Sequence record: OR083247.1
From: Escherichia phage Bf23
Length of the DNA stretch: 64,000 nt
Strand: one strand, 5' to 3'
Of the stretch, positions 58,299 to 58,584 are shown in pieces. Numbering within the stretch: position 1 is the first letter of the stretch; each line of letters begins with the position of its first letter. The notes beneath the pieces were generated by a model, which did not search any database, was not told where the DNA came from, and was given only the letters and a program-made list of their open reading frames with translations. The translations under genes were made by a program, and so were the position numbers.

Positions 58299-58515
58299 AA
58301 AATGGGAAACAAGGAAGTTTCCAGTAAAGGAACGTAAAGTTCCTGTTTATGATACTTCGGAAAAGCTATGTAGGGTGGTACCACATAGATTAGCTGGTAT
58401 CCCTAACATATCCGAGTGGTTACTTAAACAACGGAGGACTAACGTATCTCTTCGCATAGGGTTTGAGTTAGATAAAGTATATGCTGAACTTTCTTCTTTG
58501 CTCAAAGAATCATAA
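58273..58515 (+). CDS. hypothetical protein
   Basis: 80-aa ORF overlapping the end of the ATPase gene. Confidence 0.4.
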   Translation: MLEMTVKNKKWETRKFPVKERKVPVYDTSEKLCRVVPHRLAGIPNISEWLLKQRRTNVSLRIGFELDKVYAELSSLLKES

Positions 58516-58524
58516 AAAATTTAT

Positions 58525-58553
58525 TTGCTTTCAGGAAAATTTTTCTGTATAAT
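58525..58553 (+). promoter_or_regulatory. T5 PN25-like early promoter (TTGCTT-17-TATAAT)
   Basis: 58510-58580 matches the PN25 sequence as I recall it from expression vectors. Confidence 0.8.
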
Positions 58554-58584
58554 AGATTTATAAATTTGAGAGAGGAGTTTAAAT

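What the first reader, a model, noticed from the sequence alone, without database searches (positions are those of the whole stretch)
58510..58580. Near-identity to the T5 PN25 promoter, and a conserved early-promoter/leader cassette repeated more than 20 times
58510-58580 matches the PN25 promoter widely used in expression vectors, as I recall it. The same architecture (-35 TTGC(T/A)T, 17 bp, -10 TATAAT, then an AT-rich transcribed leader of the form ATTTATAAATT(G/A)ATGAG) precedes most early genes on both strands. Conservation of the transcribed leader beyond the core promoter suggests a shared post-initiation role such as a translational enhancer or nuclease/processing signal.
Basis: partly seen in the sequence, partly recalled or inferred. 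Interest (0 to 1): 0.4.

Follow-up and report, generated by a model that had tools for sequence, protein, structure and literature searches.

The report
T5 PN25 and early-promoter cassettes
This stretch is the well-known strong PN25 promoter of a T5-like phage, one of about 29 near-identical early promoters whose conserved transcribed start is a documented part of the promoter, so the finding is real but ordinary.

Summary
The window comes from a T5-like phage (Tequintavirus). Positions 58505-58579 align with the feature GenBank annotates as 'promoter P-N 25' in T5, with one difference in 111 nt: T instead of C at -1, position 58559.

The same architecture occurs 29 times, always pointing the way the genes run:
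- an A-tract at -43;
- a -35 element TTGCTw;
- a 17-bp spacer;
- a -10 element TATAAT;
- an AT-rich discriminator;
- ATAAATTGATGAG at +1..+13.

Twenty-three copies keep the +1 ATAAATT box.

All of this is already published. The T5 record lists these sites as early promoters T5P6-T5P38, and annotates the -10 plus leader box as dispersed 'repeat b/c'. A logo for phage AKFV33 shows the -43 AAAAATT and +1 TAAATT motifs. The PN25 transcribed region +3..+20 is a classic determinant of promoter escape, with about a 10-fold effect.

My dissection shows that -6..+13 is conserved even in front of tRNA and non-coding-RNA operons, whereas +14..+20 is conserved only where a start codon follows, so it is the Shine-Dalgarno. 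The box is therefore promoter-intrinsic, not a translation-only or nuclease signal.

One modest addition: ATAAATT at +1..+7 also appears in Klebsiella, Pectobacterium, Vibrio and Aeromonas Demerecviridae.

Interest is low.

The parts
58514..58524 (+). AT-rich '-43' block (AAAAAATTTAT) upstream of the -35 hexamer. It is UP-element-like and overlaps the stop of the upstream ORF 58273-58515.
   Evidence: Across the 27 copies, positions -45..-37 carry 8.1 bits with consensus AAAAwTTtA. Published as the '-43 region AAAAATT' in PMC3326045.
58525..58530 (+). -35 hexamer TTGCTT
   Evidence: C at the 4th position occurs in 24 of 27 copies.
58531..58547 (+). 17-bp spacer
   Evidence: This is the only internal promoter segment (between the -35 hexamer and +13) with many variable columns among PN25 orthologues: 8 of 17.
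58548..58553 (+). -10 hexamer TATAAT
   Evidence: Invariant in all 27 copies and in all 29 PN25 orthologues.
58554..58559 (+). Discriminator AGATTT. T58559 (-1) is the only difference from T5 PN25, which has C.
   Evidence: The class consensus is A-tatTy, 4.1 bits. The ATATT discriminator of early promoters is described in PMC7472727.
58560..58572 (+). Initially transcribed sequence ATAAATTTGAGAG (+1..+13), the conserved 'leader box'. The predicted transcription start is A58560.
   Evidence: 9.7 bits over 27 copies. None of the 13 columns varies among PN25 orthologues. The +1 numbering follows PMC7472727. The role in promoter escape is from the literature.
58570..58577 (+). Shine-Dalgarno GAGAGGAG of the D3 gene, overlapping the 3' end of the box
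   Evidence: +14..+20 is conserved only in copies with a start codon at +22..+35.
58585..59289 (+). First gene of the PN25 transcription unit (D3 protein, 234 aa). Its ATG is at +26.
10269..10334 (-). Early-type cassette with an 18-bp spacer and ITS ATAGATT. No close start codon.
12709..12773 (-). Promoter with TTGACT -35 and no ATAAATT box (weak class member)
   Evidence: The T5 orthologue is annotated as a promoter in AY543070.
15739..15803 (-). Early cassette (T5P8 orthologue)
16247..16311 (-). Early cassette (T5P9 / 'P-F 30' region orthologue)
18456..18520 (-). Early cassette (T5P10 orthologue, 'repeat a') preceded by a terminator hairpin. The box is perfect and the ATG lies at +52.
19274..19338 (-). 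Early cassette (T5P11 orthologue)
23852..23916 (-). Early cassette (T5P13 orthologue)
25977..26041 (-). Early cassette (T5P14 orthologue, 'repeat b copy 1')
28050..28114 (-). Early cassette (T5P16 orthologue, 'repeat b copy 2'), directly after tRNA-Thr
30610..30674 (-). Early cassette, orthologue of T5 'promoter P13b' ('repeat b copy 3'). The box is perfect. It drives the non-coding RNA2H orthologue (30417-30588) and then tRNAs.
31652..31716 (-). Early cassette, orthologue of T5 'promoter P13a'. The box is shifted by 1 nt and tRNA-Pro starts at about +26.
33905..33969 (-). Early cassette (T5P18 orthologue)
34674..34738 (-). Early cassette (T5P19 orthologue) upstream of the tRNA-Tyr/Glu/Phe cluster. 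The box is diverged (CTAATTT).
35045..35109 (-). Early cassette (T5P20 orthologue)
36506..36570 (-). Early cassette (T5 'repeat c copy 3' orthologue) with a long leader
38648..38712 (-). Early cassette (T5P23 orthologue)
39974..40038 (-). Early cassette (T5 'repeat c copy 4' orthologue)
41566..41630 (-). Early cassette, orthologue of T5 'promoter P-H 207' (100% identical over 75 nt)
41917..41981 (-). Early cassette (T5P26 orthologue). The ITS is diverged (ATTGAAA).
43390..43455 (-). Early cassette with an 18-bp spacer (T5P27 orthologue). The ITS is diverged.
46006..46070 (-). Early cassette (T5P28 orthologue). The ITS is diverged.
49604..49668 (-). Early cassette (T5P30 orthologue), the leftward arm of the divergent early region
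49841..49905 (+). nrdD promoter with TTGACA/TATAAT and no ATAAATT box
51816..51880 (+). Early cassette (T5P31 orthologue, 'repeat a copy 2' plus 'repeat c copy 5') preceded by a terminator hairpin
54973..55037 (+). Early cassette (T5P32 orthologue), followed by a ~490-nt leader before the D2/obp helicase gene
59541..59605 (+). Early cassette, orthologue of T5 'promoter P-N 26' (T5P34)
60758..60822 (+). Early cassette (T5P35 orthologue, 'repeat b copy 4') in front of DNA ligase subunit A
61933..61997 (+). Early cassette (T5P37 orthologue, 'repeat b copy 5') in front of ligase subunit B

Best explanation
Positions 58514-58577 are this T5-like phage's orthologue of promoter PN25. It is one member of the early-class promoter family that host sigma-70 RNA polymerase reads without any phage sigma factor.

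Each cassette is one extended promoter, made of:
- an A-tract around -43 (UP-like);
- a -35 element TTGCTw;
- a 17-bp spacer;
- a perfect -10 element TATAAT;
- an AT-rich discriminator;
- an A-start, AT- and purine-rich initially transcribed sequence, ATAAATTGATGAG.

Where a protein gene follows directly, a GAGAGG Shine-Dalgarno comes next, with a start codon at about +25.

The conserved 'leader box' is therefore mostly promoter DNA read by RNA polymerase after it has bound. Polymerase binds these promoters so tightly that promoter escape is rate-limiting. The discriminator and initially transcribed sequence set how fast the polymerase leaves the promoter and how much abortive RNA it makes.

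What is shown here: identity with PN25, copy number, fixed register, independence from translation signals, purifying selection, and family-wide conservation.

What comes from the literature: the escape function of PN25 +3..+20 and the class-specific discriminator.

What is inferred: that escape optimisation is the reason the box is conserved in all copies.
For: **Identity.** There is 1 mismatch in 111 nt to the annotated 'promoter P-N 25', in the same gene context.

**Family.** There are 29 co-oriented copies, where chance predicts under 1.

**Fixed register.** The box ATAAATTGATGAG with at most 1 mismatch occurs 10 times. All 10 lie directly after a TATAAT, with no orphan copies.

**Linkage to the class-specific -35.** A match of at least 5 of 7 to ATAAATT occurs in 24 of 27 TTGC-type sites and in 1 of 9 other sites (p = 4e-5).

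**Independence from translation.** -6..+13 is conserved in promoters that have no adjacent ORF. These include P13b (non-coding RNA2H plus tRNAs) and P13a (tRNA-Pro at about +26). Only +14..+20 needs a nearby ATG.

**Purifying selection.**
- Window versus T5, 23 orthologous pairs: 0.017 substitutions per site in +1..+13 against 0.10-0.13 in the flanks (Fisher p = 1e-8).
- Among 29 PN25 orthologues, none of the 13 box columns varies, while 8 of 17 spacer columns do.

**Family-wide conservation.** Sites selected by core elements only in Klebsiella, Pectobacterium, Vibrio and Aeromonas Demerecviridae all give ATAAATT at +1..+7, at 4.5-6.3 bits.

**No RNA element.** There is no Rfam hit, and the leaders are less structured than random sense-strand windows.

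**Literature.**
- The N25 antiDSR variant (+3..+20 replaced) gives about 10-fold less full-length RNA, with escape half-life 45 min against 3 min (PMC12464699; PMC10911233).
- All T5 early promoters share an ATATT discriminator that late promoters lack (PMC7472727).
- A published logo for phage AKFV33 shows -43 AAAAATT and +1 TAAATT (PMC3326045).
- T5 pre-early and late promoters lack the box.
Against: - The escape experiments were done on PN25 alone, by replacing the whole +3..+20 block. They show that composition matters (AT-rich, purine-rich) but not that the exact bases do.
- The logo is base-specific. A and T are not interchangeable at +2..+7 (each p <= 0.0025). It has stayed so across genera whose ligase proteins are only about 50% identical. 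A purely compositional escape model does not predict this, so an additional reader remains possible: a phage factor, sigma/core contacts, or the RNA 5' end.
- The consensus contains TG at +7/+8. A randomised-ITS study (PMC5961368) found TG to slow escape most strongly at +5/+6, and did not single out +7/+8.
- The copies are paralogues, so the counts are not independent.
- The transcription start was not mapped in this phage.
Confidence: 0.72

Rival explanations
1. The discriminator plus box is a class-specific recognition element. A phage-encoded factor acting on RNA polymerase or DNA reads it and uses it to switch early transcription off when late transcription starts. Candidates are the RNAP-binding protein gpT5.026 or the D5 DNA-binding protein. 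Escape efficiency would be a secondary effect.
For: - The box is restricted to the early class. T5 pre-early and late promoters lack it.
- Conservation is base-specific, not merely AT-rich, and extends across the family.
- gpT5.026 lowers RNAP affinity for the -5/+2 segment of N25. Its loss raises early transcripts and lowers late ones (PMC7472727).
- The gpT5.026 orthologue is encoded in this window at 13723-14184.
Against: - gpT5.026 has only a weak effect in vitro, and it binds RNAP far from the DNA.
- No homologue was listed for Vibrio or Aeromonas phages, although their promoters carry ATAAATT. This is at tblastn sensitivity only.
- No factor is known to bind +1..+13.
Confidence: 0.2
2. 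The conserved 5' AUAAAUUGAUGAG works at the RNA level. In this reading it is an unstructured AU-rich leader that recruits ribosomal protein S1 and enhances translation of early mRNAs.
For: - Twenty of 29 cassettes place an SD and ATG at +22..+35, directly after the box.
- The leaders are AU-rich and weakly structured: mean MFE -3.3 against -4.6 kcal/mol for controls, with 63% of +1..+13 unpaired.
- AU-rich leaders are established S1-dependent enhancers in E. coli (general knowledge).
Against: - The box keeps its register to the -10, not to the start codon. The ATG lies anywhere from +22 to +68 or beyond.
- It is equally conserved where no ORF follows, for example at P13b (RNA2H plus tRNAs), P13a (tRNA-Pro) and the long D2 leader.
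- It never occurs in front of internal genes of operons. All 10 copies with at most 1 mismatch follow a TATAAT.
- At best this is an additional benefit, not the reason for conservation.
Confidence: 0.2
3. The box is a nuclease, processing or stability signal on the 5' end of early transcripts. The analogy is T4 RegB cutting early mRNAs.
For: - The 5' ends are uniform, and the GAGAGG/GGAG motifs are uniform, across early transcripts.
- The RNA2H orthologue begins about 42 nt downstream of the predicted start, so that leader is removed.
Against: - No structure and no known RNA family is present.
- No RegB-like function is known in T5.
- The element is tied to the -10 in DNA, and no copies occur elsewhere in transcripts.
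- The published effect of the region is on transcription in a purified system.
Confidence: 0.06
4. The similarity is maintained by recombination, not by function. The cassettes would behave like the mobile promoter cassettes of T4-type phages (PeSLs), being homogenised and shuffling gene modules.
For: - Homology blocks between this phage and T5 break 8 times at -4..+20 of a cassette and never at its upstream edge.
- The best hit of T5 'P-D/E 33' in the window is a paralogous cassette.
Against: - The consensus is conserved across genera whose proteins are about 50% identical.
- Within-cassette constraint is graded, with a variable spacer and an invariant box. Both points argue for selection on function.
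- Only 6 of 29 cassettes have an adjacent stem-loop.
- The T5 st0 deletion joined a 10-bp repeat inside ORFs, not two cassettes.
- Junctions right behind promoters are also expected simply because inserted genes must be expressed.
Confidence: 0.08

Closest known systems
Bacteriophage T5 promoter PN25 (N25), annotated 'promoter P-N 25' in AY692264 and 'T5P33' in AY587007
   Same: - 110 of 111 nt are identical.
- The flanking genes are the same: the D2 helicase side upstream, D3 downstream, and PN26 about 1 kb further on.
- The -35, spacer, -10, ITS and SD are the same.
   Different: There is one transition at -1: T in the window, C in T5 and in all 28 IMG/VR orthologues examined.
T5 early-promoter class (PN26, PH207, P13a/b, T5P6-T5P38), with the dispersed 'repeat b' (TATAATATTTATATAAATTGATGAG) and 'repeat c' (TGTATAATATATTCATAAATTTGAGAGAG) of the T5 genome annotation
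   Same: - Twenty-two of the 29 window cassettes map onto annotated T5 early promoters, and three more onto annotated b/c repeats not marked as promoters.
- The consensus is the same.
- The published AKFV33 logo shows TTGCTw, TATAATA, -43 AAAAATT and +1 TAAATT (PMC3326045).
   Different: - A few T5-annotated promoters have no counterpart in the window, and a few window copies lack a T5 counterpart, because gene modules differ behind the promoters.
- This adds nothing new in kind.
Initially transcribed sequence / 'downstream sequence region' of E. coli promoters (Kammerer et al. 1986; work of the Hsu laboratory on N25)
   Same: It occupies the same positions (+1..+20), and the prototype on which the concept was established is the same sequence.
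   Different: In general E. coli promoters the ITS shows no consensus. Here it is a base-specific consensus shared by about 23 promoters of one genome and by other genera of the family.
   Same: - Both are many near-identical, extended sigma-70 early promoters with AT-rich upstream blocks.
- Gene-module junctions lie at the cassettes.
   Different: - Stem-loops accompany only 6 of 29 cassettes.
- The conserved extension lies downstream of the -10, in the transcribed region.
Sigma-70-dependent promoter-proximal pause elements (lambda PR' type, a -10-like hexamer in the ITS)
   Same: TAAATT at +2..+7 matches TATAAT at 4 of 6 positions, including the A at position 2 and the T at position 6. The location is similar to the lambda PR' element.
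   Different: No pause has been reported at N25, no Q-like factor is known, and the match is weak. This is a resemblance only.

Membership tests
T5 promoter PN25 (orthologue) | Sequence identity with the annotated P-N25 of T5 | tested here: met
   110 of 111 nt are identical to AY692264 54987-55061 and its flanks.
T5 promoter PN25 (orthologue) | Same genomic position: after the D2 helicase block, before D3, with PN26 about 1 kb downstream | tested here: met
   The window-T5 block 58278-64000 is collinear at 97.4% identity.
T5 promoter PN25 (orthologue) | Transcription starts at the A located 7 nt after TATAAT | not testable with these tools
   The numbering is taken from PMC7472727. No 5'-end data exist for this phage.
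T5-like early-class sigma-70 promoter | -35 TTGCTw, a 17-18 bp spacer, and -10 TATAAT(A) | tested here: met
   Logo of 27 copies. This matches PMC3326045.
T5-like early-class sigma-70 promoter | AT-rich -43 block, and AT-rich discriminator/+1 TAAATT | tested here: met
   The three segments carry 8.1, 4.1 and 9.7 bits respectively. The ATATT discriminator is described in PMC7472727.
T5-like early-class sigma-70 promoter | Early temporal expression after second-step DNA transfer | not testable with these tools
   This is inferred only from position in the early region and orthology with T5 early promoters.
ITS / downstream-sequence-region determinant of promoter escape | Lies at +1..+20 in fixed register with the -10 | tested here: met
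   All 10 box copies with at most 1 mismatch follow TATAAT by 6 (or 7) nt.
ITS / downstream-sequence-region determinant of promoter escape | Acts independently of translation signals | tested here: met
   -6..+13 is conserved in 9 promoters without an adjacent ORF. P13b drives non-coding RNA2H plus tRNAs.
ITS / downstream-sequence-region determinant of promoter escape | Changing it alters the abortive/productive ratio and escape rate | not testable with these tools
   This has been shown for T5 N25 in the literature (PMC12464699) but not for the other copies.
AU-rich translational enhancer (S1-binding leader) | Unstructured AU-rich RNA immediately 5' of the SD | tested here: met
   Leaders are weakly structured. 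The SD follows in 20 of 29 copies.
AU-rich translational enhancer (S1-binding leader) | Presence and position tied to a translation start | tested here: not met
   The register is to the -10. The box is conserved before RNA genes and long leaders, and is absent before internal genes.
Known structured cis-regulatory RNA (Rfam) | Match to a covariance model, or stable conserved structure | tested here: not met
   Only tRNAs reach gathering scores in the window. The mean z-score is -0.37.
Sigma-70-dependent pause element | -10-like hexamer in the ITS | tested here: inconclusive
   TAAATT at +2..+7 matches 4 of 6 positions (sequence inspection; counts).
Sigma-70-dependent pause element | RNAP pause at about +16..+25 that requires sigma | not testable with these tools
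   No data are available. No paper in the library links N25 to sigma-dependent pausing.
PeSL-type mobile promoter cassette | Early promoter coupled to a stem-loop | tested here: not met
   A terminator-like hairpin lies upstream of only 6 of 29 cassettes.
PeSL-type mobile promoter cassette | Cassettes mark junctions of exchanged gene modules | tested here: inconclusive
   Eight homology breaks fall at -4..+20 of cassettes and none at their upstream edge. Selection for expression of inserted genes would produce the same pattern.

The most novel reading that the evidence does not exclude
The base-specific ATAAATTGA at +1..+9 could be more than an 'easy-escape' sequence. It is kept in five genera of Demerecviridae whose proteins have diverged to about 50% identity. 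It is tightly linked to the non-consensus TTGC -35 and is absent from pre-early and late promoters.

In this reading it would be a dedicated early-class recognition element. It might be read by a conserved phage factor, or by sigma-70/core RNAP as a programmed initial pause. Candidate features for a pause are the TG at +7/+8 or the -10-like TAAATT. Such an element would provide the still-unknown handle for the early-to-late transcription switch of T5-like phages.
Probability: 0.15. Interest if true: 0.5.

Novelty: already known. Interest (0 to 1): 0.15.

Why it matters
PN25 is one of the most-used strong promoters in E. coli engineering, for example in pQE/pDS-type vectors and PN25-tetR. It is also the standard model for promoter escape. 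Recognising it here simply identifies the window as a T5-like phage early region and provides a ready map of its transcription units.

Two points go slightly beyond the literature I could read:
- The conserved leader splits cleanly into a promoter-intrinsic part (-6..+13) and an optional Shine-Dalgarno part (+14..+20).
- The +1 ATAAATT motif is a hallmark of the whole family, not just of T5.

These points sharpen an old open question: how T5 switches from early to late transcription while using unmodified host sigma-70. They do not answer it.

Tried and rejected
- **Original papers.** Gentz & Bujard 1985, Kammerer 1986 and Hsu 2006 are not held in the library. Their content is cited through later papers or marked as recollection.
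- **PLSDB search with the 80-nt promoter.** It gave no match. Expression vectors are not in that collection, and AT-rich sequence may be masked. The engineered use was confirmed in E. coli genomes instead.
- **Cassette-mediated deletion.** I tested whether the T5 st0 deletion arose by recombination between cassettes. It did not. The record marks a 10-bp repeat inside ORFs as the recombination site.
- **Terminator-plus-promoter module (PeSL-like).** Only 6 of 29 cassettes have a terminator-like hairpin upstream, so I rejected this as a general feature.
- **Structured leader RNA.** There is no Rfam hit and no excess folding energy.
- **Co-distribution of gpT5.026 with the box.** Homologues were listed in enterobacterial, Proteus, Providencia and Pectobacterium phages but not in Vibrio or Aeromonas phages, which still have the box. 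This is weak evidence against gpT5.026 being the reason for conservation.
- **More distant D3 homologues.** Those at 41% identity or less in IMG/VR have no such cassette upstream.
- **Literature searches.** I found no T5 transcriptome or TSS map, and no paper linking N25 to sigma-dependent pausing.
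Full report
**What the window is.** The 300 nt around the finding match 422 phage records, nearly all of them T5-like phages of Escherichia and Salmonella. The best matches are 99.3% to phage HildyBeyeler and 98.3% to T5 itself. The window is collinear with T5 positions ~4,000-68,600 in blocks of 83-98% identity. It therefore covers part of the terminal repeat and pre-early region plus most of the early region of a Tequintavirus. That includes a cluster of 20 tRNA genes.

**Check of the observation: PN25.**
- Window 58490-58600 aligns without gaps to both T5 genome records, with one mismatch in 111 nt.
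- In AY692264 the matching stretch is annotated 'promoter P-N 25', and the next promoter is 'promoter P-N 26'. In AY587007 the same stretch is 'putative early promoter T5P33' plus 'repeat c copy 6'.
- The elements are:

| Element | Sequence | Window position |
|---|---|---|
| -35 | TTGCTT | 58525-58530 |
| Spacer | 17 bp | 58531-58547 |
| -10 | TATAAT | 58548-58553 |
| Discriminator | AGATTT | 58554-58559 |
| +1 | A | 58560 |
| Shine-Dalgarno | GAGAGGAG | 58570-58577 |
| D3 start codon | ATG (+26) | 58585 |

- The numbering follows the statement in PMC7472727 that TATAATAGATTCAT spans -12..+2 of N25.
- The only difference from T5 is T instead of C at -1 (58559). All 28 IMG/VR orthologues I retrieved have C.
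The sequence occurs in 10 of 5,426 complete E. coli genomes. In an MG1655 derivative it lies directly upstream of tetR(B), next to lambda cI/rex. This is the PN25-tetR arrangement described in PMC8966031.

**Check of the observation: the repeated cassette.**
- TTGCWT-N16-18-TATAAT occurs 16 times, against 0.23 expected.
- A weight matrix built from these sites and iterated finds 27 copies with a 17-bp spacer. Their scores are 34-75 bits, against a maximum of 7 in shuffled sequence. Two more have an 18-bp spacer, giving 29 in total.
- All copies are on the - strand between 10.3 and 49.6 kb and on the + strand from 49.9 kb onward. That is the direction of the ORFs and of T5's divergent early transcription.
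- The information content of each segment over the 27 copies is as follows:

| Segment | Consensus | Bits |
|---|---|---|
| -45..-37 | AAAAwTTtA | 8.1 |
| -35 | TTGCTw | 8.5 |
| Spacer | – | 6.8 |
| -10 | TATAAT (invariant) | 9.8 |
| Discriminator | A-tatTy | 4.1 |
| +1..+13 | ATAAATTGATGAG | 9.7 |
| +14..+20 | – | 2.0 |
| Beyond +20 | – | ~0 |

- That set was chosen with a matrix that included the downstream part, so I repeated the measurement on sites chosen by core elements only. TTGNNN-N17-TATAAT gives 31 sites, against 1.6 expected. The downstream signal remains at 5.9 bits for +1..+13. Sixty-one TATAAT sites without a -35 give 0.2 bits.
- Twenty-three of the 29 cassettes match ATAAATT at +1..+7 in at least 5 of 7 positions (counted by eye from the listing).
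- 'More than 20 copies' is therefore correct. 'Precedes most early genes' should read 'precedes most early transcription units', at about one per 1.8 kb.

**This is already annotated and published.**
- Of the 29 window cassettes, 22 map onto T5 features annotated 'putative early promoter', and three more map onto annotated 'repeat b/c' copies that are not marked as promoters.
- Those repeats are exactly the -10 plus leader box: repeat b is TATAATATTTATATAAATTGATGAG and repeat c is TGTATAATATATTCATAAATTTGAGAGAG.
- Named classical promoters are recovered: P-H 207 (window 41566-41640, 100% identical), P13b (30600-30684), P13a (31662-31725) and PN26.
- The genome paper on the T5-like phage AKFV33 reports 32 such promoters, with consensus TTGCTw / TATAATA, a -43 AAAAATT block and a +1 TAAATT block, shown as a logo (PMC3326045).
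- Klimuk et al. state that all known T5 early promoters share an ATATT discriminator that distinguishes them from late promoters (PMC7472727).
- From memory, Gentz & Bujard (1985) already noted homologies outside the -10 and -35 regions. I could not read that paper.

**Dissecting the 'leader box'.** I split the 29 cassettes by what follows them. Twenty have a Shine-Dalgarno and a start codon at +22..+35. Nine have a distant start codon or only RNA genes downstream. The conservation in the two groups is as follows:

| Segment | Start codon near (n = 20) | No nearby start codon (n = 9) |
|---|---|---|
| -6..-1 | 3.7 bits | 4.3 bits |
| +1..+7 | 5.9 bits | 4.7 bits |
| +8..+13 | 3.5 bits | 2.4 bits |
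| +14..+20 | 3.45 bits | -0.09 bits |

- The discriminator and +1..+13 are conserved in both groups. +14..+20 is conserved only when a start codon is near.
- The box therefore has two parts: a promoter-intrinsic part (-6..+13) and an ordinary Shine-Dalgarno.
- The clearest case is window 30610-30674, the orthologue of T5 P13b. It has a perfect ATAAATTGATGAG box but is followed by the orthologue of the non-coding RNA2H (30417-30588, 96.5% identical) and then tRNA genes.
- The box keeps its distance to the -10 (6 nt, occasionally 7), while its distance to the start codon ranges from +22 to +68 and beyond.
- The box never occurs on its own. All 10 copies with at most 1 mismatch follow a TATAAT.
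- The box goes with the TTGC-type -35 in 24 of 27 sites, against 1 of 9 for other -35 types (p = 4e-5).
- T5 pre-early promoters (T5P1, P2, P4, P5) and late promoters (T5P39, P40, P42) lack the box.

**Evidence for selection.**
- Between this phage and T5, 23 orthologous promoter pairs differ as follows:

| Segment | Substitutions per site |
|---|---|
| +1..+13 | 0.017 |
| -10 | 0.000 |
| -45..-13 and discriminator | ~0.03 |
| Flanks | 0.10-0.13 |

- The contrast between the box and the flanks gives Fisher p = 1e-8. These comparisons were ungapped, so the flank rates may be somewhat inflated by indels.
- Among 29 PN25 orthologues, no column of the -10 or of +1..+13 varies, whereas 8 of 17 spacer columns do.
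- I then fetched 41-kb early regions from four other Demerecviridae genera. Their ligase A proteins are 72-49% identical to the window's. They are Klebsiella phage B01 (Sugarlandvirus), Pectobacterium phage DU_PP_V (Hongcheonvirus), Vibrio phage D51 and Aeromonas phage TS3 (Shenzhenvirus).
- In each, sites picked only by TTGC-N17-TAnAAT (7-13 sites per genome) give ATAAATT, or AtAAA.T in the Vibrio phage, at +1..+7. The information content is 4.5-6.3 bits, and the -43 A-tract is also present.
- The +1 box is thus a hallmark of the family's early promoters. It is not a by-product of recent duplication within T5.

**How it most likely works.**
- Published experiments on this very promoter give the mechanism. 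N25 binds RNA polymerase extremely tightly and is rate-limited at promoter escape.
- Replacing +3..+20 by the 'antiDSR' sequence lowers full-length RNA about 10-fold. It expands abortive products, and it lengthens the escape half-life from about 3 to about 45 min on linear templates. The authors conclude that the native AT-rich ITS evolved to speed escape (PMC12464699; see also PMC10911233).
- The window's boxes have the properties that literature associates with easy escape. They start with A, are AT-rich at +1..+7, and are purine-rich at +8..+20. The purine fraction is 0.82 in the near-ATG group and 0.69 in the far group, against a background of 0.54.
- I therefore read the cassette as one extended sigma-70 promoter whose transcribed start is tuned for escape. 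It is fused, where needed, to a minimal leader of ~25 nt carrying a strong SD.
- That the escape function holds for every copy, and that it is the reason for conservation, is inference.

**What this does not explain.**
- Conservation is base-specific. At +2..+7, A and T are not interchangeable (for example 23 A: 0 T at +4 and 23 T: 1 A at +7). Each position gives p <= 0.0025, with the caveat that the copies are paralogues.
- This specificity has persisted across genera. A purely compositional escape model does not predict it.
- The consensus also carries TG at +7/+8. A randomised-ITS study (PMC5961368) found that TG slows escape, most strongly at +5/+6, through initial pausing. It did not single out +7/+8.
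- Two non-exclusive additions remain possible. The first is recognition by a phage factor involved in the early-to-late switch. gpT5.026 weakens RNAP contacts to -5/+2 of N25, and its gene is in this window at 13723-14184. However, no homologue was listed in the Vibrio or Aeromonas phages, which still have the box.
- The second is sequence-specific reading by RNAP itself. TAAATT at +2..+7 is a 4-of-6 match to a -10 element. No paper in the library links N25 to sigma-dependent pausing.

**Rivals at the RNA level.**
- The leaders are unstructured: mean MFE -3.3 kcal/mol against -4.6 for random sense-strand windows, with z = -0.37.
- The leaders match no Rfam family.
- An AU-rich enhancer effect on translation is plausible as a bonus for the 20 cassettes that abut an ORF. 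It cannot be why the box is kept in front of RNA genes and long leaders.
- Nothing supports a nuclease signal, although nothing here excludes one.

**Verdict.** The whole thing is textbook T5 biology. Novelty: already known. Interest: low.

Noticed in passing
window 55018-55508 (+), with L006 13897-14377 and L007 13898-14378: A ~490-nt untranslated leader lies between the early promoter at 54973-55037 and the D2/obp helicase gene. The same length is kept in Klebsiella (Sugarlandvirus) and Pectobacterium (Hongcheonvirus) phages.
- It contains conserved islands: GATACGGAACAGTTCGGCTGCCCCAT at ~55080-55105 and GGCTTAGCGGCC at ~55325-55336.
- A predicted 5'-terminal hairpin pairs +5..+25 with +30..+50, and several of its pairs change on both sides.
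- It could be a regulatory leader RNA or an origin-related DNA site.
- Only three sequences were compared, so the evidence is weak.
   Followed up: partly
window 18466, 31662, 33905, 36514, 43413, 46025/46030, 51871: Homology blocks between this phage and T5 end 8 times at -4..+20 of an early cassette and never at a cassette's upstream edge. Genes are inserted or exchanged directly behind resident promoters.
- In T5, an HNH endonuclease sits right after T5P28.
- In the window, an extra 125-aa ORF (18047-18424) sits right after the T5P10 orthologue.
- The cause could be cassette-guided recombination or simply selection for expression.
   Followed up: partly
window 5267-5291 (+): A TATAAT followed by ATACAT and ATAAATTAATGAG (an early-type box) lies in the pre-early/terminal-repeat region. 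It has no TTGC -35 and no -43 A-tract. The surrounding segment (5123-5354) has no counterpart in T5.
   Followed up: no
window 30417-30588 (-) and 31732-31834 (-): These are orthologues of the T5 stable non-coding RNAs RNA2H (96.5% identical) and RNAIV (98%), inside the tRNA cluster. Rfam has no family for them. RNA2H begins about 42 nt downstream of the predicted P13b start, which implies 5' processing.
   Followed up: partly
L005 (T5 AY587007) 92095-92169, not in the window: The leader of the T5 late promoter T5P39 reads ATTAAAGAGGAGAAATTAACTATGAGA. As I recall, this is the 'RBSII' ribosome-binding site of pQE/pDS expression vectors. If so, that vector part is also a natural T5 sequence.
   Followed up: no
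window 13723-14184 (-): This is the orthologue of T5 gene 026, which encodes the RNA-polymerase-binding protein gpT5.026. By tblastn, homologues are listed in Escherichia, Salmonella, Klebsiella, Proteus, Providencia and Pectobacterium phages, but none is listed for Vibrio or Aeromonas Demerecviridae.
   Followed up: partly
window 49604-49905: This is the divergence point of early transcription. A leftward box-type promoter (49604-49668) faces a rightward TTGACA/TATAAT promoter without the box (49841-49905, nrdD), about 170 bp apart. GC skew changes sign nearby.
   Followed up: no
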